Of a stretch of 64,000 nucleotides of DNA, positions 3,211 to 59,914 are shown piece by piece. The translations under genes and the position numbers were made by a program. The DNA is taken from NCBI GenBank assembly GCA_964414185.1, contig CAYPVK010000002.1, positions 82,296-146,295 on the forward strand, written 5' to 3'. The notes under the pieces are model-generated. The model saw only the letters and a program-made list of their open reading frames with translations. It had not been told where the DNA came from and ran no database searches. This DNA is from an uncultured Lactobacillales bacterium (GTDB taxonomy: Bacteria; Pseudomonadota; Alphaproteobacteria; CAAHEQ01; UBA3637). Each line of letters begins with the position of its first letter. The first letter of the stretch is position 1.

Positions 3211-3240
3211 TCCTTAAAATTCCTTTTAAAACGCAATTGT

Positions 3241-3566
3241 ACGGTCGCTTCCGGTGCTCATATCCTCACGTACCCGAAAGTACGCTCCGGTATTGTGCGC
3301 CGGTTCTCCCTCCACTTGCGCCCTAAAAGAAATTTATTGAGAGAGAAAAGTGTCTTTTAATGCAAAAGAGTGTGCGTTAAATTCGTCCGTTTGTCAAGAA
3401 AAATATAAATCCATTTTATAGCCCGTCTGCGCGCGTCCTTCCGGTACTCGTATTCTCACGTACGTTAAGTACGCTGCGGTACTGCGTGCCGGGTGCCGCT
3501 CCATACGAACTTTCAAATGAATTTATGTGTGTTTACAGCCAGTCTGGACGCATCCTTTCGGTATCA
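3241..3566. repeat. Array of ~100-bp imperfect direct repeats: two full copies (~3241-3340 and ~3419-3526) and one truncated copy (~3537-3566), spaced ~180 bp apart and non-coding
   Basis: Copy 1 reads cgcttccggtgctcatatcctcacgtacccgaaagtacgctccggtattgtgcgccgg. Copy 2 reads cgtccttccggtactcgtattctcacgtacgttaagtacgctgcggtactgcgtgccgg. Each has a cgtac/gtacg mini-hairpin core and the two are ~75% identical. The third copy (agccagtctggacgcatcctttcggtatc) matches only the 5' part. No ORF spans them. Confidence 0.55.
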
Positions 3567-3692
3567 TTGTTTCAAAATAATTTTTGAATAAATAAAAATA
3601 TGCTTTACCATTTATATAAAACCGTTAATTTTTGCTTGATTTATCAGACAAATTACAGTTATACTGCTTACATAACAAGAAACGAGGTTGAT

Positions 3693-3980
3693 ATGCAAGA
3701 GCCGATTTTAAAAGCAGTTGCCATGCCGCCGCGCGTCTTTTGGGCGCCGATGGTGCCGGCTATTGTCAATATCGCGGTGCAAACGCCGATTATGTTTGTG
3801 TGGATTGCGTTCGGTAACAACCCGATTTTCTTTATTGCAACCCTTTTGCTTGCCCATATCGGCATTATCATTTACGGGGTGCGCGAACCTCATTTATCGA
3901 ATATGATGAAGGCGTCGGGCCCGATGATGAGTCCGTCCAAAAACATCTATCCATCCAAGGGAAATAAATTGGCTCCATGA
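3693..3980 (+). CDS. virB3: Type IV secretion system protein VirB3/TrbD-like
   Basis: MQEPILKAVAMPPRVFWAPMVPAIVNIAVQ... matches the VirB3 signature (PLFKGLTRPAM-like) and contains a hydrophobic hairpin. A gaggt ribosome-binding site lies upstream. It sits immediately before virB4. The ORF track's earlier start at 3600 is unlikely. Confidence 0.7.
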   Translation: MQEPILKAVAMPPRVFWAPMVPAIVNIAVQTPIMFVWIAFGNNPIFFIATLLLAHIGIIIYGVREPHLSNMMKASGPMMSPSKNIYPSKGNKLAP

Positions 3981-3993
3981 CAAAGGATTTTAA

Positions 3994-6426
3994 ATGACAG
4001 ATGCAGGCGTATTTTCGATGTTGGCGCAAAGCGCCTCGTCCTTTTCCACTTTGGTAGCCGTTTTCGGCGTCGGCGCGGCTATGCTGATTATGGCCGTGTT
4101 TGTGACCAAATTGGGCGATATTATTTTGCCTAAGCCCAAAGAAACGCGTGTATCGGATTTTTTGCCGTTTTCCAAGTTGGATGAAGACGGTGCGACGATT
4201 CATATGCGCAACGGGTCTTTGGCGCGCGTATTTGAAGTCAAAGGCGCTGATACGACGTTGTTAATGCCCGAAGACCGCGCCCAATTGGCCGAGGCGCGCA
4301 AGCGGTGGGTTGATTCGATGGCCGAATTGGAAATTGTATCGCGCGTTATTACGATACGCGAACGTGTGCCGTTATTTGAAAAAGAAGCGTTTCGCGACAG
4401 CAAGCTTTTGCGCACCATTTCCGAATTATGGCTGCGCGCTTTGCACCGTATTTTCCACAACCGCCATTATATCGTGTTGTCGGTCAACGACCGCAAAACG
4501 GCCATGAAAGATTTGGTGCAAGCCAGCAATGCCTTGACGGCTATTTTGGATATGTATGAACCGGTTTTGATTTCCGAAAAAACGCCGAACCGCCACAACG
4601 ACAAATCGCCGTTTTGGCTGTTTGCAAAGCTGCTCAGCCCGCTTTCAAACCCGAAACCGATTGTGCATGGGGAACAGGGCGAATATTTAAACGCGTTGTT
4701 GACATCGGATTATATCCATTTTACCAAAGATGAAGGCATCATTAAATTCATTTCGGGCACGAAAGAAAAAATGGCGATATGCATGGGCATTCGCAAACCC
4801 GGCGATTTTATGGACGAACAAATGGTTGCCGATATTATCAGCATTGATTGCGAAGTGACCGTTTGCCATAATATTAAGGCTATTCCGAATGTCAAAGCCA
4901 ACTTTTTGCTGATGCAACAACGGCGTATGGCATATTTGACGACCTTTTCGCAAAACGTGCAACAACAATATGATACCGCGTTGGAATGGATGGACCAATC
5001 CGATGCGGACGGTCAAACGTTGAACGAATATGCGATGAGCGTGTTTATTTTCGGCGATTCGAAAGAAGAATTGAATTTCGGGCAAGAAGAAGTCGAAAAA
5101 ATCTGCCGCTTGCACAATGTGACGCCGGTGCGTGACGGATGGGCGGCGCAAGCGACGTTTTTTGCGCAATTCCCGACCTATGAAGTTTATCCGCGTACGT
5201 TTATGTATTTATCGCGTGTGGTTGCGTGCGGCGTGTGTATTGACAAAACCGCCGAAGGGCGCCAAAAATCGGATTGGGGCCCGGTGCCGTTGTCTTATTT
5301 CAGGACGATTACCGGCACGCCTTATGCGTTCCAATTCCACGTGTCCGAAGAACCGTACGGCGTGGCGCATACCGCTTTAATCGGGCCGACGGGTCAAGGT
5401 AAAACGACGTTTTTCTCATTCATGGCGGGGCAATCGATGCGTATTCCCGATTTACGCACGTATTTCTTTGACCGCAACAACGGCGCCAAAGTCTTTGCTT
5501 TGATGCAAGGCGCCCCTTACGTCAAATTTGACGGCGGTGCCGAATCGGTGTCGCTCAATCCGTTGGCCGTACCCGATACGCCGGATAATCGCGCGTTCTT
5601 GCGTACGTGGATTCGCGATATCACGGGCGGTACGGATGCCGTTTCCGAACAAGAAATCGCCCGCGCCGTCACGACTGCGTTTGATTATTTAAAACCGTCG
5701 GAAAGGCTGCTTAAAAACCTGTACAAAGCGTGTTTTGCGCCGAACGGGTATATGCGCACCGAATTGTTGCGCTGGGTTAATGACGACCAATACGGGCGCG
5801 TGTTTAATTCGCCGACCGATAATTTGGATTTGGAACACCGCTATATGGCGTTTGATTTTACGACGATTTTCCAAGACGGCGTTTTGGCGCCGGCGGTAAT
5901 CAGTTACATCATGCACCGTATTCATACGCTTGCCACCGCAACGGGCAATCCGAACTTGATTATGATGGATGAAACGGCGCCGATGTTGGAACACCCGATG
6001 TTTCGCGAACAATTTATTGTGGGTTTGCGCGAAGGGCGTAAAAAACGCCAAGCTTTCCTGTGCGCTTTCCAACAGCCGCGGTTTTTGGATGACAACGGTC
6101 TCGGCGACGTGATTCGCGGGCAATGCCAAACGGTGATATTCTTCCGCAATCCGCAAGCGAACCCGTCCGATTATGCGACATGGAATTTAACGCCCAGAGA
6201 GATGAATTTCATCATGGGCAAAGAATTCGCCGACCATAAATACGCAATTTTGGTCAGCCGCCCCGCCATTCACGAATCCGTCATTTTGGACATTGATTTA
6301 AGCGGGTTGGGCCCGTATTTGAAAATTTATTCGTCGGGTAACAAATCCGTGTTGTTGGCCGAACAGCTGTCCCGCCAAATCAGCGATACCGATGCGTTGG
6401 TACAAGCGTATTTGGAACGCGCGTAA
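3994..6426 (+). CDS. virB4: Type IV secretion system ATPase VirB4/TrbE/CagE
   Basis: 810 aa with an N-terminal TM segment, a Walker A motif (GPTGQGKTTFFSFM) and a Walker B motif (LIMMDETAP). The overall architecture is that of a VirB4. Confidence 0.9.
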   Translation: MTDAGVFSMLAQSASSFSTLVAVFGVGAAMLIMAVFVTKLGDIILPKPKETRVSDFLPFSKLDEDGATIHMRNGSLARVFEVKGADTTLLMPEDRAQLAEARKRWVDSMAELEIVSRVITIRERVPLFEKEAFRDSKLLRTISELWLRALHRIFHNRHYIVLSVNDRKTAMKDLVQASNALTAILDMYEPVLISEKTPNRHNDKSPFWLFAKLLSPLSNPKPIVHGEQGEYLNALLTSDYIHFTKDEGIIKFISGTKEKMAICMGIRKPGDFMDEQMVADIISIDCEVTVCHNIKAIPNVKANFLLMQQRRMAYLTTFSQNVQQQYDTALEWMDQSDADGQTLNEYAMSVFIFGDSKEELNFGQEEVEKICRLHNVTPVRDGWAAQATFFAQFPTYEVYPRTFMYLSRVVACGVCIDKTAEGRQKSDWGPVPLSYFRTITGTPYAFQFHVSEEPYGVAHTALIGPTGQGKTTFFSFMAGQSMRIPDLRTYFFDRNNGAKVFALMQGAPYVKFDGGAESVSLNPLAVPDTPDNRAFLRTWIRDITGGTDAVSEQEIARAVTTAFDYLKPSERLLKNLYKACFAPNGYMRTELLRWVNDDQYGRVFNSPTDNLDLEHRYMAFDFTTIFQDGVLAPAVISYIMHRIHTLATATGNPNLIMMDETAPMLEHPMFREQFIVGLREGRKKRQAFLCAFQQPRFLDDNGLGDVIRGQCQTVIFFRNPQANPSDYATWNLTPREMNFIMGKEFADHKYAILVSRPAIHESVILDIDLSGLGPYLKIYSSGNKSVLLAEQLSRQISDTDALVQAYLERA

Positions 6427-9957: not shown

Positions 9958-11469
9958 TTATACCCCCTTGCGAATCGGTTTGCGATAAGATAACGCTTCG
10001 GCGACATGATGCCGTTTCGTCGTTTCGGAAAGTTCCATATCGGCAATCGTGCGCGCAACGCGCATAATGCGGTGGTATCCGCGCCCGGACAGCATTAATT
10101 TTTCGGCCGCTTCAATCAACAAGTTGCGCGCGGCGTCTTCCATACGGGCAATTTCTTCCAAAAAGGCACCGTCGGCTTCGGCATTTTTTGAAATTTTGAC
10201 ATTTTTAAAACGGCTTTCGGAAAAAGCAAGCGCCCGTTCGACACGTGCCGAAATGTCCTTGGATGATTCGCTGCCGCCGGGTCGTCCCAATTCCCACGGC
10301 GCAACGGCCGGCACGTCGACGTGTAAATCAATGCGGTCGAACATCGGTCCCGAAATTTTGGATTGGTATTCTTCGGCGCATTTCGGCGCCCGCGAACATT
10401 CATGCCCCGGCATGCCCAAATATCCGCAGCGGCACGGGTTCATAGCCGCAATCAATTGGAATTTTGCCGGATATGTTACGTGCAAATTGGCGCGCGATAC
10501 CGTAACGGTGCCCGTTTCAAGCGGCGCGCGCAACGCTTCCAAAGTCGAACGGTTAAATTCGGGCAGTTCGTCCAAAAATAAAATGCCTTTGTGAGCTAAC
10601 GAAATTTCCCCCGGCCTGGCACGCATGCCGCCGCCGACCATTGCGGGTGTCGAAGCACTGTGGTGCGGGTCGCGAAACGGGCGATGTGTAATGAGTTTCC
10701 CGTCTTTTAACAATCCGGCGACGGAGTGGATATTGCTGACTTCCAAAATATCTTCCATGCTAAGCGGCGGCATAATCGACGGCAAACGGGCCGCCAACAT
10801 TGATTTGCCCGATCCCGGCGGTCCGATCATCAAAACGTTGTGTCCGCCGACAGCGGCAATTTCCAATGCGCGTTTGGCCGATTCTTGGCCCTTGATTTCT
10901 TTAAAATCCAAATGGTGGGTTTGCCGCGGCAAAGTGCCGCATTCGGGAGCATGCAACAATTGATGCCCCTTTAAATGGTTAATCAATGATAACAAAGACG
11001 ATGGGGCGATAATATTGTCATTCCCCGACCAGGCGGCTTCGGAACCTTGTTCGGCGGGACAAATAAACGACATGCCGAAACGGTTGGCGGCAATGGCGGC
11101 GGGTAAAACGCCCGTAACCGAACGAATTGAACCGTCCAAGCCCAATTCCCCCATCATCAACGTATTTGAAATGCTTGCGGGGTCAATGATACCCATGGCC
11201 GCCATTAAAGCCATTGTAATGGGCAAATCGTAATGCGTGCCTTCCTTAATCACGTCGGCGGGTGCTAAATTGACCGTTATCCTTTCGGCCGGCAAAGATA
11301 AACCGATGGACGTCAATGCGGCGCGGATACGTTCTTTGCTTTCGGCAACGGCTTTATCGGCCAATCCCACAATTGTAAAAGCAGGCAATCCGCTCATAAT
11401 GCGCACTTCGACATCAATTTTTAAAACGTCAATCCCCGAAAACGCAACTGTATGGGTTGAACCGAGCAT
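9958..11469 (-). CDS. comM: Mg-chelatase-like AAA+ ATPase ComM/YifB
   Basis: 503 aa with a Lon-like N-terminal domain, a Walker A motif (GPPGSGKSM) and an ILFLDELPEF motif. The C-terminal region is typical of the YifB family. Confidence 0.9.
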   Translation of the reverse strand: MLGSTHTVAFSGIDVLKIDVEVRIMSGLPAFTIVGLADKAVAESKERIRAALTSIGLSLPAERITVNLAPADVIKEGTHYDLPITMALMAAMGIIDPASISNTLMMGELGLDGSIRSVTGVLPAAIAANRFGMSFICPAEQGSEAAWSGNDNIIAPSSLLSLINHLKGHQLLHAPECGTLPRQTHHLDFKEIKGQESAKRALEIAAVGGHNVLMIGPPGSGKSMLAARLPSIMPPLSMEDILEVSNIHSVAGLLKDGKLITHRPFRDPHHSASTPAMVGGGMRARPGEISLAHKGILFLDELPEFNRSTLEALRAPLETGTVTVSRANLHVTYPAKFQLIAAMNPCRCGYLGMPGHECSRAPKCAEEYQSKISGPMFDRIDLHVDVPAVAPWELGRPGGSESSKDISARVERALAFSESRFKNVKISKNAEADGAFLEEIARMEDAARNLLIEAAEKLMLSGRGYHRIMRVARTIADMELSETTKRHHVAEALSYRKPIRKGV

Positions 11470-12255
11470 TTACCACCGTGGAATGTTGTTGTTGTCGCGA
11501 TAGCGGCGCGACGGATAATCCGTGTCGGACGGAATGTCGTTATATCCCGCAAAGTGCGGTGCTGCGCGCAATTGGACATACCCTTGGGATTCATATGATC
11601 CGATGCAATTATAGTCGGTAAAATCACACCGTACCAACTCGCGTGTCATCGGGTTTTGCAAAACAACCGCCGAACCCGTGTTTGCAGCATTTTGTGTTGT
11701 TGCATCCGGTGCAGTTGCATTTGCCGAATTCATTTCCGCCCCGCCCGTATTTTGTGCGGCCGTATTCGGTGTAACCGTATTTTGCATGATTGCGTTTTGA
11801 TCGGCTTGCGCATACGGATAATACGGCATCGCATTCGGATTTTGTATCATTTGCGGATAGCCGGTGTTTTGTCCCGCAATATTTTGTGTATTTTGCGGTG
11901 CGTACATCGGTACGGGAATTTGGTTTTGTGCCGTTTGATATTGGCCTGTCACAGTTTGCGTTTCATAAGCAACGCCGGGTTGTTGTACATATTGTAAATC
12001 GGCAACCGTGCCGTATGCCGGCCCGAAATAATCGTCTTGAATGGTATAAGCGGGCGTTATCGCATAAGTGGTTTTTTGCGTTGTTTGAGTATTTGTATTC
12101 GTATTTGTTGCAACCGATTGTACTTCTTTCGGCATTGCAACGGGGTTGTGAGATGCACTGTTGTCAATTTTGACGGTAACCGGCGGTTGCATGGGTTGTG
12201 TTTGCAAAGTACATCCGGCTGCGATAAACAACGAAAGCAAAAGAAATTTTTTCAT
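11470..12255 (-). CDS. Lipoprotein with a long Q/N/T/P-rich low-complexity region
   Basis: A signal peptide (MKKFLLLSLFIAAGC) carries a lipobox Cys, with an aagga ribosome-binding site before the ATG at 12255. About 200 aa is dominated by Q, N, T, P and Y. A Cys-containing C-terminal domain follows. The gene overlaps the comM start. Confidence 0.6.
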   Translation of the reverse strand: MKKFLLLSLFIAAGCTLQTQPMQPPVTVKIDNSASHNPVAMPKEVQSVATNTNTNTQTTQKTTYAITPAYTIQDDYFGPAYGTVADLQYVQQPGVAYETQTVTGQYQTAQNQIPVPMYAPQNTQNIAGQNTGYPQMIQNPNAMPYYPYAQADQNAIMQNTVTPNTAAQNTGGAEMNSANATAPDATTQNAANTGSAVVLQNPMTRELVRCDFTDYNCIGSYESQGYVQLRAAPHFAGYNDIPSDTDYPSRRYRDNNNIPRW

Positions 12256-13680: not shown

Positions 13681-14647
13681 TTATTTTTCAGATATGGTTT
13701 GTTTCTTTGCCTTTGTCAAACGTTCGATTTCTTCGGCGCTTAAAGATACAATGTCCAAGTCAACGTATGCGGCGTTTTTAAGCGTGATTTGTGCGCCCAA
13801 ACGTACGGGGTGGCAATTGGCATCCGGATCGAATTCGACACACGTTTCGGCGACAACGTAATATTGGCCGTCCGGCAGGTTTTTAAATTCAAAAGTTCCG
13901 CCCGATTTGACGTCGGCGTTTTTTCTGTAATCATTTGTGCGTTTGTCGGCTTGAGACAATGTTTGACCGTTTTTCCAATGAACGTTCCACCATTCTTTTG
14001 AATAGGACGTGACGGGATTGGCAAAAACGATAACGGTTTCGGGGCACGGGACACCTTCGGGCAAGTTTTTGCATACGCTGCCCGTTATTTCGGCATGCCC
14101 TTGTTTTCCGTAAGGCACGTATTCTTCGATAATGAATTGTGCTTGACGCTCAATGGGCGGTCGACAAGGAATGCTGGCCAAGCTGAATTTTTTTGCAGGT
14201 TTGGCAATATGGTCCGTTTTATCTGTTTTTATTTTTTTTTTTTGAAAAAGAACTTTTGATAACTCTTTTTTGGACACCGTCTTCTTGATTGACAATGATA
14301 ACTTTGTCAACTTGGGATTGTTCGGATTTGGTGTTGTAGCTTTCCAATTTTATTTGCAATGTATGCAAAACTTGTTCTTCCCAATGACGCGCTTCCAAAT
14401 AATTGCGGATAAACAAATCGCCGAAGAATAAACAAGCCATTAAAACAATGCCGCAACAAAAGCTGAAAATGCATAATTTATCTTCGTGTGTCGTGCTTTC
14501 GCAAAAAACGGGCGGCAATTTCGAGCGGAATTTACGCCATTTGGAAGTTTTTTTGTCTGCGGGTAATTTTGTTTCGGATGAATTTATTTGCACGGAAGCC
14601 GCCGATTTGGTTGTTGCGGCTTTTTTCATATTTTGTTTTTTGGCCAT
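13681..14647 (-). pseudogene. Membrane-anchored hypothetical protein split into two overlapping ORFs (14647->14219 and 14310->13681) by a frameshift in an A12 homopolymer. It is either a pseudogene, a sequencing error, or a slippage-prone/phase-variable gene
   Basis: The upstream ORF ends ...VIKSSFSKKKNKNR* and the downstream ORF begins ...QKKKIKTDKTDH, both reading through the same T12 tract at 14232-14243 (A12 on the coding strand). Removing one A joins them into a single ~320-aa ORF. That ORF would have a basic N-terminus, one TM helix and a Cys-containing periplasmic domain. Confidence 0.5.
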
Positions 14648-20719: not shown

Positions 20720-21640
20720 ATGGCAGAAATTACAGCGGCAATGGTCAAAGAATTGCGTGAAAAAACGGGTGCCGGCATGATGGACGCGAAAAAAGCGTTG
20801 GTCGAAGTCGGCGGCAATATTGATGACGCAATTGATTATTTGCGTAAAAAAGGGATGGCCGTCGCCGAAAAGAAAGCCGGCCGTATTGCTAACCAAGGGT
20901 TGGTCGGTGTATGTGTCGACGGCAAATGCGGTGCGTTGGTCGAATTGAATTCGGAAACGGACTTTGTGGCCCGCAACGGCGAATTCCAAGAATTTTTGAA
21001 CGAAACGGTGACAATCGCCTTGAAAAACAAAGGTGATTTGGAAGCCATCAAAAAAGCCGATATGAAAGGCAAAACCGTCGAAGGCGCTTTGACGGACATG
21101 ATTGCCAAAATCGGTGAAAACATGACATTGCGCCAAAGTGCTTTTTTAAGCGTGGATGAAGGCGTTGTTGTGTCCTATATGCATTCGGCTGTTGTCCCGA
21201 ACTTGGGTAAAATCGGCGTTTTGGTCGGATTGGAAAGCAAAGCCGATACGGCCGTTTTGTCCGAATTGGGCAAAAAATTGGCGATGCATATTGCCGCCGC
21301 CGCTCCGAAATTCCAAACGATTGAATCGGTTGATGCAAAGGTGTTGGAACATGAAAAAGGCATTTATGCCGAACAAGCCAAAAATTCCGGCAAACCCGCC
21401 AATATCGTTGAAAAAATGATTGAAGGTCGTGTCCGCAAATATTATGAAGAAGTTGTTTTGATGGAACAAGCTTTCATTATGGACCCGGACAAAAAAGTCA
21501 AAGACGTGATTGCCGACGCTGCGAAAGCCGCAGGCAGTGAAATCACGCTCAAAGGCTATGTCCGCTATAACTTGGGCGAAGGTTTGGAAAAGAAAGAAGA
21601 AGATTTTGCCGCCGAAGTGGCTAAACAAATCGGTGCTTAA
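20720..21640 (+). CDS. tsf: Elongation factor Ts
   Basis: MAEITAAMVKELREKTGAGMMDAKKALVE is the canonical EF-Ts N-terminus, and the protein is 306 aa. Confidence 0.95.
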   Translation: MAEITAAMVKELREKTGAGMMDAKKALVEVGGNIDDAIDYLRKKGMAVAEKKAGRIANQGLVGVCVDGKCGALVELNSETDFVARNGEFQEFLNETVTIALKNKGDLEAIKKADMKGKTVEGALTDMIAKIGENMTLRQSAFLSVDEGVVVSYMHSAVVPNLGKIGVLVGLESKADTAVLSELGKKLAMHIAAAAPKFQTIESVDAKVLEHEKGIYAEQAKNSGKPANIVEKMIEGRVRKYYEEVVLMEQAFIMDPDKKVKDVIADAAKAAGSEITLKGYVRYNLGEGLEKKEEDFAAEVAKQIGA

Positions 21641-21871
21641 ATTTTTCGAATCGTTAAATAACGGGTCAAACCGTTTATGCCGAATTGACAACGCCCGTGT
21701 GAAAATGCGGGCGTTTTTCTTAAAACATCGGCATGTTAACAAAACTTTGGCATCGTATATCGCAACGCATATCGTATTAATAAAATCCGTCAAAAGAAAA
21801 GAGTTGATTTTTTCACCGAAAAATGTATTATGTAGTCAAACAATATTAATCAAAAATAAAAGGAAAAAAAT

Positions 21872-22432
21872 ATGGATTACAGCGCAATTAAAGCAGATTT
21901 AACCGTCCGATTCGCCAAAACGGAAGAATCTTTGAAACGTGATTTTGCGGGCTTGCGCACCGGACGTGCCAGCACCGGGTTGCTTGACCCCGTTATGGTT
22001 GACGCATACGGTGCCCGCGTGCCGCTGAACCAAGTCGGAACGGTGACCGTTGCCGAAGCGCGTATGTTGGCCGTGCAGGTGTGGGACAGAAGCTTAATCA
22101 AAGCGGTTGAAAAAGGTATCGTCGAAGCGGGTTTGGGTTTAAACCCGATGAATGACGGTCAAACGATTCGCATCCCGATTCCGCCGTTATCCGAAGAACG
22201 CCGTATTGAGCTGACAAAAATTGCCGGCCAATATACCGAAGCGGCGCGTGTGTCGGCACGCCATATCCGCCGCGACGCATTGGATGCAATTAAGGCGTTG
22301 AAGGATGCCAACGAAATTTCCGAAGACGATCAAAGCCGTTATGAAAAGGAAATCCAAACGTTGACGGATAATGCGATTAAAACGTTGGATGAACAATTAA
22401 AAGCCAAAGAAGTTGAAATTAAACAAGTATAA
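21872..22432 (+). CDS. frr: Ribosome recycling factor
   Basis: 186 aa whose RRF-family sequence features are recognisable throughout. It follows tsf after a 230-bp gap that lacks pyrH. Confidence 0.9.
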   Translation: MDYSAIKADLTVRFAKTEESLKRDFAGLRTGRASTGLLDPVMVDAYGARVPLNQVGTVTVAEARMLAVQVWDRSLIKAVEKGIVEAGLGLNPMNDGQTIRIPIPPLSEERRIELTKIAGQYTEAARVSARHIRRDALDAIKALKDANEISEDDQSRYEKEIQTLTDNAIKTLDEQLKAKEVEIKQV

Positions 22433-25154: not shown

Positions 25155-26003
25155 ATGCGTTCCAATTTATTGCTCAGGGTGTTGTCCGCCGCCGTTCTGG
25201 CGCCGCTTGTGTTGCTTGCCATTTGGTATGGCCAGCCGGTGTACGAAATGTACGGTATTCCGCTGTATACCGTTTTATTGGCGGTATTCGGGGCCGGATT
25301 GGCTTGGGAATGGGAACATATGATGTGCCAAAAGCAAACGCCGTGTGGCATTATTATGGCAACATTGGCATGTTTGACGGCATTTTTAACGCCTGACAAT
25401 CCGATTTTCGCATTTTGGGTCATATTGTTGGGCGCTTTGGTGGTTTATTGGAAATCCGCAGGGCGATTGGTAATGGCGGGCGGCGTTTTGTATATTTGCT
25501 TGCCGGTGATGAGTTTAAGTTATTTGTATTATGTCGATGAAAAAATTTCGCGCGAATTGATTTTGTGGTTGTTTTTTGTCGTATGGGCAACCGATACGGG
25601 AGCCTATTTGGTCGGTTCGACTTTAAAAGGCCCGAAAATCGCTCCGAAAATCAGCGCGAAAAAAACATGGTCGGGGCTTATCGGCGGCGTGGCGTTTGCT
25701 TCAATGGTGGCGTATGTGTTTGCACTTTATTTGAAAGCATATGATTATATTCCGCAAGGCACCGCTTTATTTAACCGTTTGACAATCGTATTGGTTGTTT
25801 CCGCTGCCGTTTTGGCGGTATTTTCCCAAATCGGCGATTTTTTTGAATCGTATATCAAACGTCGTTTGAATTTGAAAGATTCATCCAATTTAATCCCCGG
25901 GCACGGTGGGTTATTCGACCGTGTGGACGGGTTGATTTTTGCCGCAACATTGATGGCCGTTGTTTTGTTTTGTGTTAACCAAGGGTGGATTTTCAAATGG
26001 TAG
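25155..26003 (+). CDS. cdsA: Phosphatidate cytidylyltransferase
   Basis: The C-terminal signature KRxxxxKDSSxLIPGHGGxxDRxD is present as IKRRLNLKDSSNLIPGHGGLFDRVDGLIF. Confidence 0.9.
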   Translation: MRSNLLLRVLSAAVLAPLVLLAIWYGQPVYEMYGIPLYTVLLAVFGAGLAWEWEHMMCQKQTPCGIIMATLACLTAFLTPDNPIFAFWVILLGALVVYWKSAGRLVMAGGVLYICLPVMSLSYLYYVDEKISRELILWLFFVVWATDTGAYLVGSTLKGPKIAPKISAKKTWSGLIGGVAFASMVAYVFALYLKAYDYIPQGTALFNRLTIVLVVSAAVLAVFSQIGDFFESYIKRRLNLKDSSNLIPGHGGLFDRVDGLIFAATLMAVVLFCVNQGWIFKW

Positions 26004-27091
26004 ATACGTTTATTTATTTGTTTGCTTTTATTTTTGTTTTGTCCGTTGTCGTGGTTGTACATGAATGGGGGCATTTTATCGTTGCACGTTTGTGTGGTGT
26101 GAAAGTAACGCATTTTTCAGTCGGTTTCGGCAAAGTTTTGTGGCATCGGACCGATAAAAAAGGTACGGTATGGCAAGTGTGTGTGTTGCCGTTGGGCGGT
26201 TATGTGAAAATGTTGGGCGATGAAGATGCGGCCAGTGCCACCGCTTCGAAAAAAAATGTAAAAAAAGAAGATGAAAAATATATGTTCGCGACACAATCCC
26301 TTTGGAAAAAGGCGGCTATTATCGTTGCGGGCCCGGGCATGAACTATGTGTTTGCGATTTTATTGTTGACGGGTATTTTCTTTTTTGCGGGAAAAGCCGT
26401 TTGGCCGCCCGTTATCGGCGGGTTCGGCGAAAATTCGGCGGCTGAAGAAGCGGGCATGTCGGTCGGCGATAAATTTGTGGACATTAACGGATTGCCTGTT
26501 GAAAAATATCATGATATTTTGCGCATTGTCCGTTTGACGGAATTCGGCAAAGAATTGGCAATCACGGTTGACAGAGACGGTGAGCGGCTTTTATTTAACG
26601 TTACGCCTCGGTATTTTGAAGATTCCGTTCCGAGAATCGGCATTTATGCGGCGACCGAAAAAATTGTCATAGAGGAAAATTTGGGCTTGGTTCGTTCTTT
26701 TAAGGAAGCCGTCATTGACGTATATACGATTACCGTTGACACGTTGGCATATTTGGGACAGGTATTGTTTCATAACCGTTCGGCGGATGATATGCGCGGG
26801 CCGTTGGGCATTGCCGAAGCTGCGGGAGATTCTTTAAAGGGCGGCGCAATGTCGTTGTTATTGTTTATTGTGAATATTTCGGTTGCCATCGGCTTTATGA
26901 ATTTATTGCCGGTGCCGATTTTGGACGGAGGCCATTTGGCGTTTTACGCCGTTGAAGGCATTATCCGCCGCCCGATACCCGAAAGGATTCAAAACGGCTT
27001 GCTTTGGGGGGGCATGTCGTTATTGTTGTGTTTGTTGGCATTTACAATGTATTTGGATGTTCCCCGTATCATACAAAGGATATTCGGATGA
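25997..27091 (+). CDS. rseP: RIP zinc metalloprotease RseP (site-2 protease)
   Basis: It contains an HExxH motif (VHEWGHFIVARLCGVKV), a PDZ domain and an LDGGHL motif. It overlaps the cdsA stop. Confidence 0.9.
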   Translation: MVDTFIYLFAFIFVLSVVVVVHEWGHFIVARLCGVKVTHFSVGFGKVLWHRTDKKGTVWQVCVLPLGGYVKMLGDEDAASATASKKNVKKEDEKYMFATQSLWKKAAIIVAGPGMNYVFAILLLTGIFFFAGKAVWPPVIGGFGENSAAEEAGMSVGDKFVDINGLPVEKYHDILRIVRLTEFGKELAITVDRDGERLLFNVTPRYFEDSVPRIGIYAATEKIVIEENLGLVRSFKEAVIDVYTITVDTLAYLGQVLFHNRSADDMRGPLGIAEAAGDSLKGGAMSLLLFIVNISVAIGFMNLLPVPILDGGHLAFYAVEGIIRRPIPERIQNGLLWGGMSLLLCLLAFTMYLDVPRIIQRIFG

Positions 27092-55979: not shown

Positions 55980-58829
55980 ATGAAATTGAAAAATTTGATT
56001 CAAAATACGGATGAAAAATGCGGTGCCGTTGAAATTGACAATATTACATCCAATTCAAACGATGTCCGCGCGGGTACTTTGTTTGTCGCGCTGAAAGGCG
56101 TTAAAACCGACGGTGCGGCTTTTATTCCCGATGCAATCACAAAAGGGGCAGCAGCCGTGTTGGCCGACCGTGAGGTGGCTTCGGATATTCCCGTTGTCCG
56201 TGTTTTGAATGCACGGGTGGCGATGGGGCAAATTGCCGATAAATTGTATCCGTCCGACGGATTAATCAAGGCAGCCGTTACCGGTACGAACGGGAAAACG
56301 TCTTGTGTCAATTATGTTGCCGCATTGTTAAACGGTTTGGGTATTTTATCGGCCGCTTTCGGCACCATCGGCGTGCAATCGCCCGTATTGAATATCGCAG
56401 GATCAATGACAACGCCCGATGCCGTAACCGTGCATAAAATGTTACATGAATTGAATGATGCGGGCGTAAAAGTCGTCGCGATGGAAGCTTCCAGCCATGG
56501 GTTGGACCAAGACCGTTTGGTGGGGATTGATTTTGCGGTGAGCGCTTTTACAAACATAACGCAAGACCATTTGGATTATCACGGCGATATGGCGGCTTAT
56601 TTCAACGCCAAAATGAAATTGTTTTGCGAACGTACGGCCGCGAACGGCATTGTCGTTTTAAATGCCGATATCCCTGAATTTGAAACGATGCATGCACAAA
56701 TTTTGCAAAAAGGGTTGCGTGTTATTTCTTACGGCGTGAACGGTAACGAATTGAAGTTATTGTCGCGTACGGTTACGCCGACAGGGCAAACGATTGAAGT
56801 AAACGCATTCGGAAAAAAATATATGTGCGATTTGAACATCGTCGGCGATTTCCAAGTATCAAACGTGCTGTGTGCCGTCGGCATGTGTATCGGTTTAAAC
56901 GATATTTATAAACTGTTCGGCGAAACAACCGAGGCGCAATTTATTGATAAAATTTTTGCCTTACTGCCAACTTTGCAAGCGCCCGCGGGACGGTTGGAAT
57001 GTGTGGGACATTTAAAAAACGGCGCGACCGTGTATGTCGATTATGCGCATACGCCCGACGCTTTGGAACGCGTGTTAAAAACAATGCGCCCGCATACACG
57101 GCATGAATTGGTGTGCGTGTTCGGTTGCGGCGGTGACAGAGATAAAACCAAACGCCCGTTGATGGGGGCAATCGCGCAAAAATATGCCGACCGCGCCTAT
57201 TTGACCGACGATAATCCGCGCACCGAAAATGCCGCCGATATCCGCGCACAAATCAAAGCGGCGGCACCTCAGTCCATTGAAATCGGCGACCGCCACATCG
57301 CGATTGATGAAGCCGTACGTTCGTTGCAAGAGGGCGACGTGCTGGTTATTGCCGGCAAAGGGCATGAAACGGGGCAAAAAATCGGAGATACCGTTTATGC
57401 GTTTGATGATAAAATCGAAGCACAACTTGCCATAATGCGTGTCGAACAAACGCCGCTGTGGACTTATGACGAATTGCGGGCTTGTTTGGGGGACGCCGTA
57501 CCGTCGGGGGCGTGCGCTTTCGGCATTTCGATTGATACGCGTACGTTAAAAATCGGTGATATGTATGTTGCCCTTCGCGGCGAACGGTTGGACGGACATG
57601 ATTTCGTTGCCGCCGCGGTGCATAAAGGGGCAAGCGTTTGTTTGGTTGACCATCAAATTGCGAGTGTGCCCGAATGTAAACAAATCATTGTGACAGATGT
57701 TCAACCGGCGTTTGAAAAAATGGGGGCGTTTGCCCGTAACCGCAGCGACGCCGCCTTTATCGAAATTACCGGCAGTTCGGGCAAGACAACGACAAAAGAA
57801 ATGTTGAAAACCGCGTTGACAGCGCAAGGAAATACTTATGCCACGGCGGGCAATTTAAACGGCAAAATCGGCGTGCCGTTGACATTGACACGCATGGGGC
57901 GCGATATGCAATATGCAATTATCGAAACAGGCATGGACCATTTGGGGGATTTGACGAACTTGTCAAAAATGGTGCGCCCGAACGTATCGATTATCACGAT
58001 GGTGGGGCCGGCTCATTTGGCATATTTTAAAGACGTTGCCCAGATTGCCGAAGCGAAAAGCGAAATTTTTATCGGCCAGGAAAAAGACGGTACGGCTATC
58101 ATCAATGCCGACAGCCCTTATTGCGCTTTTTTGCGCGATAAAGTCGTTTCAAACGGTATTCGCAATATTATTTCTTTCGGCAAAAATGAACAAGCCGGTT
58201 TCAGATTGTTAAACGCGATGCCGAACGGTGATAAAACGATGGTCAATGCAATGGTCGGCGGTGAAAAAATATCTTATTGCATCGGATTTTTGGGCGAACA
58301 TTTTGCGATGGATTCTTTGGCGGTTTTGGCAGCGGTTGATGCCCTTGGGGCCAGCGTGAAACAAGCGGCTGCCGATTTGTCGCAAACATCGGCGGTTATC
58401 GGGCGCGGCGCGGTGCAAAAAATCACGTTGGCGGACGGGCGTTCGTACGATTTAATCGACGATTCTTATAACGCCAACCCGGCGTCGATGGCGGCATCCG
58501 TCGGTACGTTGGGCATGCATGAAAATACCGTTAAAATCGCACTGCTCGGCGATATGAAAGAATTGGGCGGCGGCGAAATCGAAATGCATACGAATTTATT
58601 ACAAAATTTATTGGACAATCATATTTCAAAGGTTTATGCTGTAGGGACTTTGATGAAGCATTTGTTTGATATATTGCCGTCCGATATGAAAGGGGCATGG
58701 CGGCAAACGCCCGAAGAAATGGCGGGTGTTGTTTTAAACGAAATGCCTGACGGTGCCGTGTTGTTGGTTAAATCTTCCCAAAGCACGGGTTTGAACAAAA
58801 TTGTTCCAACTTTAAAAGGGATGCGATAA
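55980..58829 (+). CDS. murEF: In-frame fusion of MurE (UDP-MurNAc-tripeptide synthetase) and MurF (UDP-MurNAc-pentapeptide synthetase)
   Basis: 949 aa. The MurE part has a P-loop (TGTNGKTS), and its end (...AGKGHETGQKIGDTVYAFDDKIEAQLAIM) is typical. With no stop between them, a MurF N-terminus follows (~57440; ...SIDTRTLKIGDMYVALRGERLDGHDF...ITGSSGKTTTKEML). Confidence 0.85.
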   Translation: MKLKNLIQNTDEKCGAVEIDNITSNSNDVRAGTLFVALKGVKTDGAAFIPDAITKGAAAVLADREVASDIPVVRVLNARVAMGQIADKLYPSDGLIKAAVTGTNGKTSCVNYVAALLNGLGILSAAFGTIGVQSPVLNIAGSMTTPDAVTVHKMLHELNDAGVKVVAMEASSHGLDQDRLVGIDFAVSAFTNITQDHLDYHGDMAAYFNAKMKLFCERTAANGIVVLNADIPEFETMHAQILQKGLRVISYGVNGNELKLLSRTVTPTGQTIEVNAFGKKYMCDLNIVGDFQVSNVLCAVGMCIGLNDIYKLFGETTEAQFIDKIFALLPTLQAPAGRLECVGHLKNGATVYVDYAHTPDALERVLKTMRPHTRHELVCVFGCGGDRDKTKRPLMGAIAQKYADRAYLTDDNPRTENAADIRAQIKAAAPQSIEIGDRHIAIDEAVRSLQEGDVLVIAGKGHETGQKIGDTVYAFDDKIEAQLAIMRVEQTPLWTYDELRACLGDAVPSGACAFGISIDTRTLKIGDMYVALRGERLDGHDFVAAAVHKGASVCLVDHQIASVPECKQIIVTDVQPAFEKMGAFARNRSDAAFIEITGSSGKTTTKEMLKTALTAQGNTYATAGNLNGKIGVPLTLTRMGRDMQYAIIETGMDHLGDLTNLSKMVRPNVSIITMVGPAHLAYFKDVAQIAEAKSEIFIGQEKDGTAIINADSPYCAFLRDKVVSNGIRNIISFGKNEQAGFRLLNAMPNGDKTMVNAMVGGEKISYCIGFLGEHFAMDSLAVLAAVDALGASVKQAAADLSQTSAVIGRGAVQKITLADGRSYDLIDDSYNANPASMAASVGTLGMHENTVKIALLGDMKELGGGEIEMHTNLLQNLLDNHISKVYAVGTLMKHLFDILPSDMKGAWRQTPEEMAGVVLNEMPDGAVLLVKSSQSTGLNKIVPTLKGMR

Positions 58830-59911
58830 TGCTGTATTTACTTTCGTTTTATGCCAATGAATTTAATCTTTTGAATCTGTTCCGTTATATTTCGTTCCGA
58901 ACGGGCGGTGCGATTTTTACCGCATTTTTTATCTGCTTGTTCATGGGGCCGCATTTTATTCGGTGGCTTAAGAAAAAACAAGGCGAAGGGCAACCTATCC
59001 GCACCGACGGGCCACAAACGCATTTGGCAAAAAAAGGAACACCGACCATGGGCGGATTGATGATTTTGATATCGGCCGCCGCTGCGACGTTATTGTGGGC
59101 AAATTGGTTTAATCCGTATGTTTGGATGTTGTTATTTGTCTTGCTCGGATTCGGTTTGGCGGGCATGTTGGACGATTATTTGAAATTAACCAGGCGCAAT
59201 CCGAATGGCGTGTCGTCACGGCAAAAATTATTTTTGCAATTGGTTGTTTCGATTATCGCATGCGTATGGATGATTATGCTTGAACAAGGGCCGATGGGTA
59301 CCACATTGACCGTGCCGTTTTTTAAAAACTTGTTCATCGACTTGGGATATTTTTATGTACCGTTCGTGTTGATTGTACTTGTCGGTGCTTCAAATGCCGT
59401 TAATTTGACAGACGGTTTGGACGGGTTGGTCAGCATTCCCGTTATTATGTCGGTATTGGTATTTATGGTAATAGCCTATCTTGTCGGTCGTATCGATTAC
59501 GCATCGTATTTAAAAGTTCATTATGTATTGGGAGCAGGGGAAATGTCCATTTTTTGCGGTGCCGTTATCGGAGGCGTTATGGGCTTTTTGTGGTTTAACG
59601 CGCATCCGGCGCAAGTATTTATGGGCGATACGGGTTCTTTGGCTTTAGGCGGCGTGTTGGGAGCTTTGTCCGTTGCAACGAAACACGAAATTGTTTTGGC
59701 GATTTCGGGCGGCGTTTTTGTTGTTGAAGCTTTATCGGTTATGATTCAGGTCGGTTCTTATAAATTGCGTGGCAAACGCGTATTTTTGATGGCGCCGATA
59801 CATCACCATTTTGAAAAAAAAGGATGGAGCGAAACAACCGTTGTCGTTCGTTTTTGGATTGTATCCATTTTGTTGGCTTTGTTGGCTTTGTCTACATTAA
59901 AATTGAGGTAG
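58829..59911 (+). CDS. mraY: Phospho-N-acetylmuramoyl-pentapeptide transferase
   Basis: 360 aa and polytopic, with the MraY motifs NAVNLTDGLDGL and HHHFE. Confidence 0.93.
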   Translation: MLYLLSFYANEFNLLNLFRYISFRTGGAIFTAFFICLFMGPHFIRWLKKKQGEGQPIRTDGPQTHLAKKGTPTMGGLMILISAAAATLLWANWFNPYVWMLLFVLLGFGLAGMLDDYLKLTRRNPNGVSSRQKLFLQLVVSIIACVWMIMLEQGPMGTTLTVPFFKNLFIDLGYFYVPFVLIVLVGASNAVNLTDGLDGLVSIPVIMSVLVFMVIAYLVGRIDYASYLKVHYVLGAGEMSIFCGAVIGGVMGFLWFNAHPAQVFMGDTGSLALGGVLGALSVATKHEIVLAISGGVFVVEALSVMIQVGSYKLRGKRVFLMAPIHHHFEKKGWSETTVVVRFWIVSILLALLALSTLKLR

Positions 59912-59914
59912 CGC

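What the first reader, a model, noticed from the sequence alone, without database searches (positions are those of the whole stretch)
3693..6426. Orphan VirB3-VirB4 type IV secretion pair without the other vir genes
virB3 and virB4 are present and coupled. The flanking genes are gatCAB and rlmA, with no virB2, B6, B8-B11 or virD4 nearby. Scattered vir loci are characteristic of Rickettsiales-type (rvh) T4SS in obligate intracellular alphaproteobacteria. Together with the missing pyrH, dxr and murD at their canonical sites, this hints at a host-associated lineage.
Basis: partly seen in the sequence, partly recalled or inferred. Interest (0 to 1): 0.55.

Follow-up and report, generated by a model that had tools for sequence, protein, structure and literature searches.

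The report
Detached VirB3-VirB4 module of dispersed T4SS
The two genes are a real, intact and strongly conserved VirB3/VirB4 energising unit of a type IV secretion system in an uncultured gut alphaproteobacterium; they most likely work with partner genes kept elsewhere on the chromosome, so this is an interesting but not unprecedented gene layout.

Summary
Observation confirmed. Window 3693-3980 encodes a 95-aa two-helix VirB3 and 3994-6426 an 810-aa VirB4 ATPase, lying between gatCAB and rlmA. The 64-kb window holds no other T4SS gene apart from an unrelated lone PilT-like ATPase.

The pair is not a remnant. 57 species-level gut or rumen alphaproteobacterial MAGs carry a VirB4 of this family, one per genome. 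About 50 of them form the window's own sub-clade, where virB3 sits directly upstream wherever the contig reaches it and the neighbours are changing housekeeping genes. dN/dS is 0.02-0.05, the same as for gatA and gatB, and the Walker A and B motifs are invariant.

The sister sub-lineage keeps one contiguous operon: virB2 x2, B3, B4, four unknown genes, virB8 x2, B9, a giant B10 and B11. In the window's sub-clade the pair has been split off. VirD4 sits in its own module, 8 kb away in one genome and about 91 kb away on the same contig in another.

I could not show VirB2/6/8-11 in any genome of the window's own sub-clade.

The nearest complete relatives are plasmid VirB/D4 operons of Alphaproteobacteria (33-39% identity), not rvh. 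"Scattered like rvh" describes the layout; clade membership is not supported.

Verdict: a new member of a known kind, of moderate interest.

The parts
3636..3665 (+). Candidate sigma-70-type promoter (TTGATT-18-TATACT), 28 nt upstream of the virB3 start. A GAGG ribosome-binding site lies at 3684-3687.
   Evidence: Consensus scan. The number of such sites in the region is no greater than in shuffled sequence, so this is only a candidate. Sequence read.
3693..3980 (+). virB3: a 95-aa inner-membrane protein with two adjacent hydrophobic helices (about residues 20-42 and 44-64), then a conserved EPH(L/M)S motif and a KN(I/V)Y...G.K(L/F)AP tail.
   Evidence: Translation. An intact ORF of this family lies directly upstream of virB4 in 53 related sequences. 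19 of 35 orthologues match PF05101 VirB3. phmmer against the virB3-position ORFs of the plasmid operons gives E=1e-7 (Erythrobacter) for the window copy and about 1e-10 at best for the family (Microvirga, annotated VirB3). dN/dS is 0.015-0.065 in unsaturated pairs.
3994..6426 (+). virB4: an 810-aa T4SS ATPase with an N-terminal hydrophobic segment (about residues 17-40), a CagE/TrbE/VirB N-domain and a C-terminal P-loop ATPase. Walker A is GPTGQGKTT (464-472) and Walker B is MDETAPML (658-665).
   Evidence: TIGR00929 E=1.8e-103, PF03135, and PDB TrwK E=6e-34. Walker motifs and the EGRK.RQ and FFRN motifs are invariant across 12 sequences down to 38% identity. dN/dS is 0.019-0.052, equal to gatA and gatB.

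Best explanation
The two genes encode the inner-membrane energising module of a chromosomally encoded, vertically inherited VirB/D4-type (MPF-T class) type IV secretion system. Its genes are dispersed over the chromosome in this sub-clade of uncultured gut and rumen Alphaproteobacteria.

Proposed mechanism, from established T4SS biology (for example the R388 structure whose TrwK chains matched):
- VirB3, a two-helix hairpin, anchors VirB4 hexamers at the cytoplasmic face of the inner membrane.
- VirB4 hydrolyses ATP to extract VirB2 pilin from the membrane for pilus or channel assembly.
- Together with VirD4 and VirB11, VirB4 drives substrate through a VirB6/8/9/10 channel.

Shown here:
- The identity of both proteins.
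- Intact catalytic motifs.
- Single-copy conservation of virB4 in 57 species, with the intact pair seen wherever the contig covers the upstream side, under purifying selection as strong as on gatA and gatB.
- A contiguous full operon in the sister lineage.
- A separate, conserved VirD4 module in genomes of the window's own sub-clade.

Inferred:
- The window's genome keeps VirB2/6/8/9/10/11 at other loci.
- The substrate. I favour proteins or surface structures over conjugative DNA, because no relaxase is linked.
For: Identity of the proteins.

Conservation: a GTDB species-representative scan found 57 loci in 57 different MAGs at 51-99% VirB4 identity, so one copy per genome. virB3 lies immediately upstream in all loci where the contig covers that side.

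Variable flanks: gatCAB is upstream in about 27 loci. The other neighbours differ and include rlmA, PAS-yifB, mutS, lgt, ppa, uvrA and the mraZ-ftsI cluster. The pair therefore stays together while its surroundings are rearranged.

Selection: virB4 dN/dS is 0.019-0.052, against 0.006-0.051 for gatA and gatB in the same unsaturated genome pairs. In the window versus L037 comparison, virB4 dN equals gatB dN at 0.102. Walker A and B are invariant.

Phylogeny: the NJ tree gives ((L051,P0001),((L044,L048),(window sub-clade))), nested among plasmid-type alphaproteobacterial VirB4s. There is no long branch leading to the window sub-clade.

Sister lineage: L042/43/44/48/67/68 carry virB2 x2, a VirB2-like 847-aa protein, virB3, virB4, four unknown proteins, virB8, a 62-aa protein, virB8, virB9, an 1146-aa repeat protein, a 1570-aa VirB10 and VirB11, all on one strand.

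VirD4 in the window's sub-clade:
- L029 (VirB4 74% identical to the window) has VirD4 8 kb downstream.
- On contig JAZQUH010000039.1, VirB4 lies at about 142 kb and VirD4 at about 50 kb.
- The same VirD4 module sits next to dnaJ on one side and udg on the other in a second genome.
- All 120 listed VirD4 protein clusters are 61-99% identical to L029's. Given the calibration, this places them inside the window's sub-clade.

No mobile-element marks: no relaxase hit in the window or in any of the loci held when one search was run (the 57 VirB4 loci and the first context loci), no tRNA in the window, and no phage-family hits among the neighbouring unknown ORFs apart from one PHROG of unknown function on the 209-aa ORF at 13681-14310.
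Against: No VirB2, B6, B8, B9, B10 or B11 gene was shown in any genome of the window's own sub-clade. None lies within +/-10 kb of the pair in about 50 loci, within +/-10 kb of VirD4 in the genomes examined, or in the 64-kb window. The claim that the rest of the machine exists elsewhere is therefore inference from selection and from the sister lineage.

The VirB4 score is below NCBI's curated family cut-off (347 against 643 bits), so this is a divergent member.

The window's VirB3 gives no Pfam hit by itself.

The NJ tree is a quick distance tree without support values.

No expression or functional data exist.
Confidence: 0.7

Rival explanations
1. Repurposed minimal module. The sub-clade has lost the periplasmic and outer-membrane T4SS core. 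It keeps only VirB3-VirB4, with VirD4 and its three conserved unknown neighbours, as a stand-alone inner-membrane translocase, or couples them to a different outer-membrane conduit.
For: No core-channel gene was found near the pair, near VirD4 or in the window in any sub-clade genome. The VirD4 module has conserved partners of unknown function: p373/381, p221/225 and a weakly SUKH-like p148/150. A secretin gene lies next to the T4SS operon in the sister lineage.
Against: Only about 20 kb around each gene could be inspected, so absence is not shown. As far as I know there is no precedent for VirB4 working without VirB6/8/10. The sister lineage has the full set. The rate of VirB4 evolution does not change on the branch to the sub-clade.
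Confidence: 0.1
2. The dispersed system is a ComB-like DNA-uptake (competence) T4SS rather than an exporter.
For: The lineage's VirB10 C-terminal domain scores best against the ComB10 model (112.6 bits, against 96.2 for VirB10). ComEC and an Endonuclease_1 gene lie 3-5 kb from VirD4 in one genome. From background knowledge, H. pylori comB is also split into two operons.
Against: From background knowledge, ComB systems lack VirD4 and VirB11. Both are present and conserved here. The ComB10 score is far below the model's cut-off of 300. The ComEC proximity was seen in L065 and its near-identical twin contig L066, but not in the second VirD4 context, L077.
Confidence: 0.08
3. The pair is a decaying remnant of a lost conjugative element or T4SS, with no present function.
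For: The pair is isolated from all other vir genes in the window. The VirB4 score is below the curated cut-off.
Against: virB4 is intact wherever the contig covers the whole gene, with no stops or frameshifts, and virB3 is intact in 53 sequences. dN/dS is 0.02-0.05, like essential genes. The catalytic motifs are invariant. virB3 and virB4 always stay adjacent.
Confidence: 0.04
4. The pair is part of an integrated conjugative or mobilisable element whose other genes lie beyond the window.
For: The closest complete relatives are on plasmids with MobA/MobL relaxases.
Against: The same gatCAB-virB3-virB4 junction occurs in about 27 species. No relaxase was found in the window or in any of the loci held when one search was run. 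There is no tRNA in the window and no recognised mobile-element gene next to the pair; one 209-aa ORF about 7 kb downstream matches a PHROG of unknown function. G+C of 4001-6000 (0.50) is like that of other conserved genes in the window, for example 1-2000 at 0.50 and 10001-12000 at 0.51. VirB4 divergence tracks that of gatA and gatB, as expected for vertical descent.
Confidence: 0.04

Closest known systems
Plasmid-borne VirB/D4 (MPF-T) operons of Alphaproteobacteria: Microvirga sp. VF16 pMVF16-3, an Erythrobacter aureus YH-07 plasmid and a Sphingosinicella plasmid
   Same: These hold the closest VirB4 proteins found outside the gut clade, at 38.9%, 33.5% and 34.2% identity over 95% or more of the length. 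The virB3-position ORF, VirB8, VirB9, VirB10, VirB11 and VirD4 of the two operons read in full (Microvirga, Erythrobacter) are recognisably homologous to those of the gut lineage.
   Different: In the two operons read in full, all genes sit in one contiguous operon beside a MobA/MobL relaxase on a plasmid. Here the B3-B4 pair is chromosomal, has no relaxase and is detached from the other genes.
Rickettsiales vir homologue (rvh) T4SS
   Same: Both are chromosomal and vertically inherited, with genes spread over separate islets among housekeeping genes, and virB3 and virB4 kept together. The sister lineage has a duplicated VirB8 with a small ORF between the copies, and several large unknown proteins after VirB4 where rvh has its VirB6 paralogues (PMC2653234).
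   Different: No specific sequence affinity was found. In rvh, virB4 is followed by the virB6 paralogues and virD4 follows virB11. Here virB4 is followed by housekeeping genes and virD4 has its own module. No TrbL/VirB6 domain could be detected in the large proteins. The organisms are gut-lumen MAGs with genomes of about 2 Mb in the sister lineage (contig lengths). They are not known to be intracellular.
R388 Trw / Agrobacterium VirB archetype
   Same: The VirB4 architecture is shared, and the closest solved structure is TrwK (E=6e-34). The presumed role of VirB3-VirB4 in the inner-membrane complex is the same.
   Different: Identity is only about 24%. The archetypes are single operons on plasmids.
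Helicobacter pylori ComB DNA-uptake T4SS
   Same: From background knowledge, it is split into a comB2-B3-B4 unit and a comB6-B10 unit. Here the lineage's VirB10 scores best against ComB10.
   Different: From background knowledge, ComB lacks VirD4 and VirB11, whereas both are present in this lineage. The score is far below the model cut-off.

Membership tests
VirB4/TrbE/CagE T4SS ATPase (TIGR00929, PF03135) | Significant full-length match to the family profile and to a solved VirB4 | tested here: met
   TIGR00929 E=1.8e-103 over residues 170-798, at 347 bits, which is below NCBI's curated cut-off of 643. PF03135 scores 38.8 bits, above its cut-off of 21. TrwK 7o41 E=6e-34.
VirB4/TrbE/CagE T4SS ATPase (TIGR00929, PF03135) | Intact Walker A and Walker B nucleotide-binding motifs | tested here: met
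   GPTGQGKTT and DETAPML are invariant in 12 sequences spanning 38-79% identity.
VirB4/TrbE/CagE T4SS ATPase (TIGR00929, PF03135) | Encoded with other mating-pair-formation genes | tested here: inconclusive
   Only virB3 is present in the window. A full operon exists in the sister lineage, and VirD4 lies elsewhere in sub-clade genomes. The rest was not located in the window's sub-clade.
VirB3 (PF05101) | Profile or sequence match to VirB3 | tested here: met
   The window copy alone has no Pfam hit. 19 of 35 orthologues hit PF05101, best E=4e-5. phmmer against the small ORFs at the virB3 position of the plasmid operons: E=1e-7 for the window copy with the Erythrobacter ORF (recorded as hypothetical); the Microvirga ORF (annotated VirB3 family) hits 59 family members, best about 1e-10. 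A profile search of the PDB found nothing.
VirB3 (PF05101) | Protein of about 100 aa with two adjacent transmembrane helices, encoded immediately upstream of virB4 | tested here: met
   The gene is adjacent to virB4, with a 13-nt gap or an overlap, in all loci where the upstream side is covered.
Rickettsiales rvh T4SS | Genes dispersed in several chromosomal islets and vertically inherited (PMC2653234) | tested here: met
   The pair and the VirD4 module are 8 kb and about 91 kb apart in two sub-clade genomes, among housekeeping genes. VirB4 divergence parallels that of gatA and gatB.
Rickettsiales rvh T4SS | Duplicated virB4, virB8 and virB9 and proliferated virB6; no virB5 (PMC2653234) | tested here: inconclusive
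   VirB8 is duplicated in the sister lineage. A truncated VirB3-VirB4N paralogue occurs in only two species. No VirB9 duplicate was seen. No VirB6/TrbL domain was detectable in the four proteins after VirB4. None of this could be examined in the window's genome.
Rickettsiales rvh T4SS | virD4 arrayed after virB8-virB11 (PMC2653234) | tested here: not met
   The operon ends at virB11 in L072-L074. VirD4 sits in its own module next to dnaJ and udg.
Rickettsiales rvh T4SS | Proteins group phylogenetically with Rickettsiales Rvh proteins | tested here: inconclusive
   No rvh sequences were available to place in a tree. Indirect tests show no clear affinity. All NCBIfam VirB4, B11 and D4 equivalog models score at about 9-55% of their cut-offs. 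VirB8 hits solved chains deposited as VirB8 or TrwG; I did not check whether a Rickettsia RvhB8 sequence is in the PDB copy searched. The nearest complete systems are alphaproteobacterial plasmids.
Conjugative element (plasmid or ICE) MPF-T module | Linked relaxase, coupling protein, and an integrase or replication functions | tested here: not met
   No MobA/MobL hit in the window or in any of the loci held when one search was run. No tRNA in the window. Among the neighbouring unknown ORFs the only PHROGs hit is one family of unknown function. The gatCAB junction is conserved in about 27 species.
ComB-type DNA-uptake T4SS | No VirD4 and no VirB11 (background knowledge) | tested here: not met
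   VirD4 and VirB11 homologues are conserved in the lineage.

The most novel reading that the evidence does not exclude
In this sub-clade of about 50 species, the periplasmic and outer-membrane T4SS core may have been lost. VirB3-VirB4, together with the separately encoded VirD4 module and its three conserved unknown partner proteins, would then survive under strong selection. It would act as a stand-alone inner-membrane ATPase machine, or as one coupled to a non-T4SS outer-membrane conduit. That would be a new use of the most conserved T4SS component.
Probability: 0.08. Interest if true: 0.8.

Novelty: new member of a known kind. Interest (0 to 1): 0.4.

Why it matters
The carriers are widespread but uncultured Alphaproteobacteria of human, ruminant, rabbit and other animal guts. 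I found no paper on their secretion systems in the library searched.

A chromosomal, vertically inherited T4SS under selection as strong as on translation genes implies that contact-dependent transfer to host cells, gut eukaryotes or other bacteria is central to their biology.

The clade also shows, step by step, how a contiguous VirB operon becomes dispersed: intact in one sub-lineage, and B3-B4 and D4 detached in the next. This is an independent parallel to the Rickettsiales rvh archipelago.

For annotation, it is a warning that an "orphan" VirB4 need not be a relic.

Tried and rejected
1. Look-ups of the window's BamA-like and DnaE-like ORFs by exact sequence failed, probably because the start codons were called differently.

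2. A profile of 35 VirB3 orthologues against PDB sequences gave no hit.

3. I tried three ways to locate VirB8-11 in the window's own sub-clade.
- A VirB8 search from the sister lineage returned 120 rows, all at least 74% identical, that is, sister-lineage variants only.
- A VirB11 search from an outgroup lineage gave several groups that I could not assign. The three contexts I looked up were lone VirB11 genes of more distant lineages (rpsB only 57% identical to the window's for L070; L075 could not be placed), or a virB9-virB11 operon end that is probably of the sister-lineage type.
- Matching contig lengths between hit lists linked only VirD4 to the L054 contig.

6. Rfam found no family in the repeat-bearing intergenic region upstream of virB3. 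The repeat core occurs only in the same species.

It was replaced by a fast NJ tree without bootstrap support.

8. I considered and rejected the 230-aa signal-peptide protein often seen near the pair (cluster 15) as a T4SS part. It travels with xth and corA-like housekeeping genes and has no T4SS similarity.

9. The lgt, yfiH, ppa and uvrA genes next to the pair in deep-branching members are ordinary housekeeping genes.
Full report
**1. What is in the window**

On the + strand, an ATG at 3693 opens a 95-codon ORF ending at 3980. Thirteen bases later, after an AAGGA ribosome-binding site, an ATG at 3994 opens an 810-codon ORF ending at 6426.

The large protein is a VirB4-family ATPase. It scores E=1.8e-103 on NCBIfam TIGR00929 (347 bits, below the curated cut-off of 643), E=1.2e-9 on Pfam PF03135, and E=6e-34 against the solved R388 VirB4 (TrwK, 7o41) over residues 170-744. 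It has a Walker A motif GPTGQGKTT and a Walker B motif MDETAPML.

The small protein gives no Pfam hit on its own. Its shape fits VirB3: two adjacent hydrophobic helices followed by a conserved EPHLS motif. 19 of 35 orthologues match PF05101 VirB3. It also matches the small ORF at the virB3 position of related plasmid operons by phmmer: E=1e-7 for the window copy against the Erythrobacter ORF (recorded as hypothetical), and about 1e-10 at best for family members against the Microvirga ORF (annotated VirB3 family).

Upstream on the other strand are gatC, gatA and gatB. Downstream are rlmA, three unknown small ORFs, a PAS protein and yifB.

**2. Is anything else of a T4SS in the window?**

I took every protein of three related plasmid operons and of the sister-lineage operon described below. 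I searched them with phmmer against all six-frame ORFs of the window. There was no hit to VirB2, B6, B8, B9, B10, VirD4 or a MobA/MobL relaxase.

The only related hit is a lone ATPase at 37482-38624(-), between a DUF5665 gene and rimP-nusA-infB. It scores as PilT-like (TIGR01420 E=6.5e-37, below cut-off) and only weakly as VirB11. It is not the orthologue of the lineage's VirB11 (E=3.5e-5).

The window has no tRNA gene. Among the unknown neighbours of the pair, the only PHROGs match is one family of unknown function on the 209-aa ORF at 13681-14310.

**3. Whose genome is it, and is the pair conserved?**

A scan of one genome per GTDB species found 57 loci in 57 different MAGs, at 51-99% VirB4 identity. 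Almost all are labelled "uncultured Alphaproteobacteria". They come from human, roe deer, sheep, goat, yak, buffalo, rabbit and other gut or rumen samples. One of them, UBA7488, is 99% identical to the window.

No MAG yielded two loci. The search peptides include stretches conserved across the whole family (FQFHVSEE, DFMDEQMV). The gene therefore looks single-copy, within the limits of MAG completeness.

Wherever the contig reaches the upstream side, virB3 lies immediately before virB4. About 27 loci share the gatCAB junction. The other neighbours vary and include rlmA (only in the window's species), PAS-yifB-dnaE, mutS, lgt, inorganic pyrophosphatase, uvrA and the mraZ-ftsI-murEF cluster. The chromosome has been rearranged around the pair many times, but never through it.

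**4. Is it under selection?**

I computed Nei-Gojobori dN/dS on genome pairs whose synonymous sites are not saturated.
- virB4: 0.019-0.052.
- virB3: 0.015-0.065.
- gatA and gatB: 0.006-0.051 in the same pairs.

Between the window and L037, dN is 0.102 for both virB4 and gatB. Walker A, Walker B and the EGRK.RQ and FFRN motifs are invariant down to 38% identity. A decaying remnant is excluded.

**5. Where is the rest of the machine?**

The closest VirB4 proteins outside the gut clade are on plasmids of Microvirga (38.9%), Sphingosinicella (34.2%) and Erythrobacter (33.5%), and of the amoeba symbiont Ca. Paracaedimonas (30.7%). The Microvirga and Erythrobacter operons, which I read in full, are complete and contiguous (virB2-B3-B4-...-B8-B9-B10-B11-D4) with a MobA/MobL relaxase; the Paracaedimonas locus is similar but unannotated. 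Classical Ti- or Sinorhizobium-type VirB4 is only about 24% identical.

In a distance tree the gut sequences are monophyletic: ((L051,P0001),((L044,L048),(window sub-clade))). They are nested among these plasmid-type proteins.

The L042/43/44/48 sub-lineage is 55-58% identical to the window. It includes a very abundant human-gut species whose proteins NCBI labels "Azospirillum sp." or "Ca. Scatocola". It keeps one contiguous, same-strand operon:
- two VirB2 genes and an 847-aa protein with a VirB2-like part;
- virB3 and virB4;
- four proteins of 618, 222, 482 and 1417 aa with no recognisable domain;
- VirB8, a 62-aa protein, and a second VirB8;
- VirB9;
- an 1146-aa beta-flower/RHS-repeat protein;
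- a 1570-aa VirB10 carrying the same repeats;
- VirB11.

In a related contig the operon stops at virB11 and is followed by unrelated genes, so VirD4 is separate there too.

In the window's own sub-clade (about 50 species; VirB4 69-100% identical to the window) the pair is detached.
- L029 has VirD4 8 kb downstream, after PAS-yifB-dnaE.
- MAG GCA_045631185.1 has VirB4 at about 142 kb and VirD4 at about 50 kb of the same 207-kb contig.
- VirD4 sits in a four-gene module (p373/381, VirD4, p221/225, p148/150) next to dnaJ on one side and udg on the other. The module is the same in a second genome.
- All 120 listed VirD4 protein clusters are 61-99% identical to L029's. L029 and L054 are 81% identical in VirB4 and 72% in VirD4. 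These clusters must therefore belong to the window's sub-clade.

Lone VirB11 genes beside lptF/G occur in three other gut alphaproteobacterial lineages. One of these also has an isolated virB3-virB4 pair 3 kb away.

**6. What I could not show**

I found no VirB2/6/8/9/10/11 gene in a genome of the window's own sub-clade. Only about 20 kb around each located gene can be read. The protein-search listings were saturated by the abundant sister species or could not be assigned to a lineage. The metagenome scan failed with an error that consumed its cap.

That the window's genome keeps the remaining components elsewhere is therefore an inference. It rests on three points: the strength of selection on VirB3, VirB4 and VirD4; the complete operon in the sister lineage; and the unchanged evolutionary rate of VirB4 on the branch to the sub-clade.

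**7. Mechanism**

The best-supported reading is that VirB3-VirB4 is the inner-membrane energising module of a dispersed, chromosomal VirB/D4-type T4SS. In solved and studied systems, VirB3 anchors VirB4 hexamers under the channel. VirB4 powers pilin extraction and assembly and, with VirD4 and VirB11, substrate passage.

No relaxase is linked anywhere in the clade. The giant repeat-bearing VirB10 and its paralogue suggest an exposed surface structure. I therefore favour protein delivery or adhesion over conjugation, with low confidence.

A ComB-like DNA-uptake role is hinted at by the best NCBIfam match of VirB10, which is ComB10 at a score far below cut-off, and by comEC lying near virD4 in one genome. 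The presence of VirD4 and VirB11 argues against it.

**8. Comparison with rvh**

The layout resembles the Rickettsiales "archipelago" in several ways: chromosomal, vertically inherited, with islets among housekeeping genes, B3-B4 kept together and VirB8 duplicated (PMC2653234). Membership is not supported.
- There is no clear sequence affinity.
- VirD4 is not arrayed with virB8-11.
- No VirB6 domain is detectable in the proteins after VirB4.
- The nearest complete systems are alphaproteobacterial plasmids.
- The sister lineage is not dispersed at all.

I had no rvh sequences to put in a tree, so the phylogenetic test is still to be done. "Host-associated" is right in the sense of gut-associated. 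An intracellular lifestyle is not indicated by anything examined here.

**9. Verdict**

The pair is a real, functional, conserved VirB3-VirB4 unit. Its isolation is best explained by dispersal of a T4SS operon in one sub-clade of gut Alphaproteobacteria. It is a new member of a known kind, of moderate interest. One low-probability but interesting alternative remains open: a module that works without the canonical channel.

Noticed in passing
window 3217-3337 and 3407-3526: Two direct copies (about 70% identical, 189-190 nt apart) of an element of about 120 nt lie in the 482-nt gatC/virB3 intergenic region. Each core folds into a long imperfect hairpin, with a G:C to A:U compensatory change between the copies. 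There is no Rfam match. The core motif occurs only twice in the window and otherwise only in the same-species contig L058. It may be a REP- or MITE-like element or a regulatory RNA upstream of virB3.
   Followed up: partly
window 37482-38624 (-): A lone 380-aa secretion-type ATPase (PF00437 T2SSE) lies between a DUF5665 gene and rimP-nusA-infB. Its best match is PilT/PilU (TIGR01420 E=6.5e-37, below cut-off), then ComGA, GspE, TraJ and DotB, and only weakly VirB11. No pilus or secretion partner genes are nearby.
   Followed up: partly
window 20720-22432, 25155-27091 and 55980-61036: pyrH is absent between tsf and frr. dxr is absent between cdsA and rseP. murD is absent between mraY and ftsW. 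murE and murF are fused into one 949-aa gene (PRK11929 E=5e-246). A related genome carries dxs, so dxr is probably elsewhere.
   Followed up: partly
L024 9395-10564 and L025 9458-10621: In two sub-clade species an extra 387-389-aa ORF lies directly upstream of virB3-virB4. It is a fusion of a VirB3-like N-terminus with a VirB4 N-domain (33% identical to VirB4 residues about 219-412) and lacks the ATPase domain, so it is a truncated tandem paralogue.
   Followed up: partly
L067 1-20729; L042 6069-22421; L073: The sister-lineage T4SS operon has several unusual parts: two VirB2 genes plus an 847-aa protein with a VirB2-like region, four domain-less proteins (up to 1417 aa) after VirB4, duplicated VirB8 flanking a 62-aa ORF, an 1146-aa beta-flower/DUF3659/RHS-repeat protein, and a 1421-1570-aa VirB10 carrying the same repeats. 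A secretin gene lies just upstream on the other strand in L042.
   Followed up: partly
L065 8842-13414; L077 1105-5573; L029 19605-22422: A conserved VirD4 module lies next to dnaJ and udg: an unknown 373-381-aa protein, VirD4, an unknown 221-225-aa protein and a 148-150-aa protein with weak SUKH (immunity-protein-like) matches. The last two might be an effector-immunity pair.
   Followed up: no
L063 6129-7094; L070 10001-10966; L075 8204-9169: Three other gut alphaproteobacterial lineages have a lone VirB11 gene in conserved synteny beside an lptF/lptG gene. In L063 it lies 3 kb from an isolated virB3-virB4 pair, and an ankyrin-repeat protein lies about 8.7 kb upstream of virB4. A close homologue of the L063 VirB11 is labelled "Rickettsiales bacterium" by NCBI.
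   Followed up: partly
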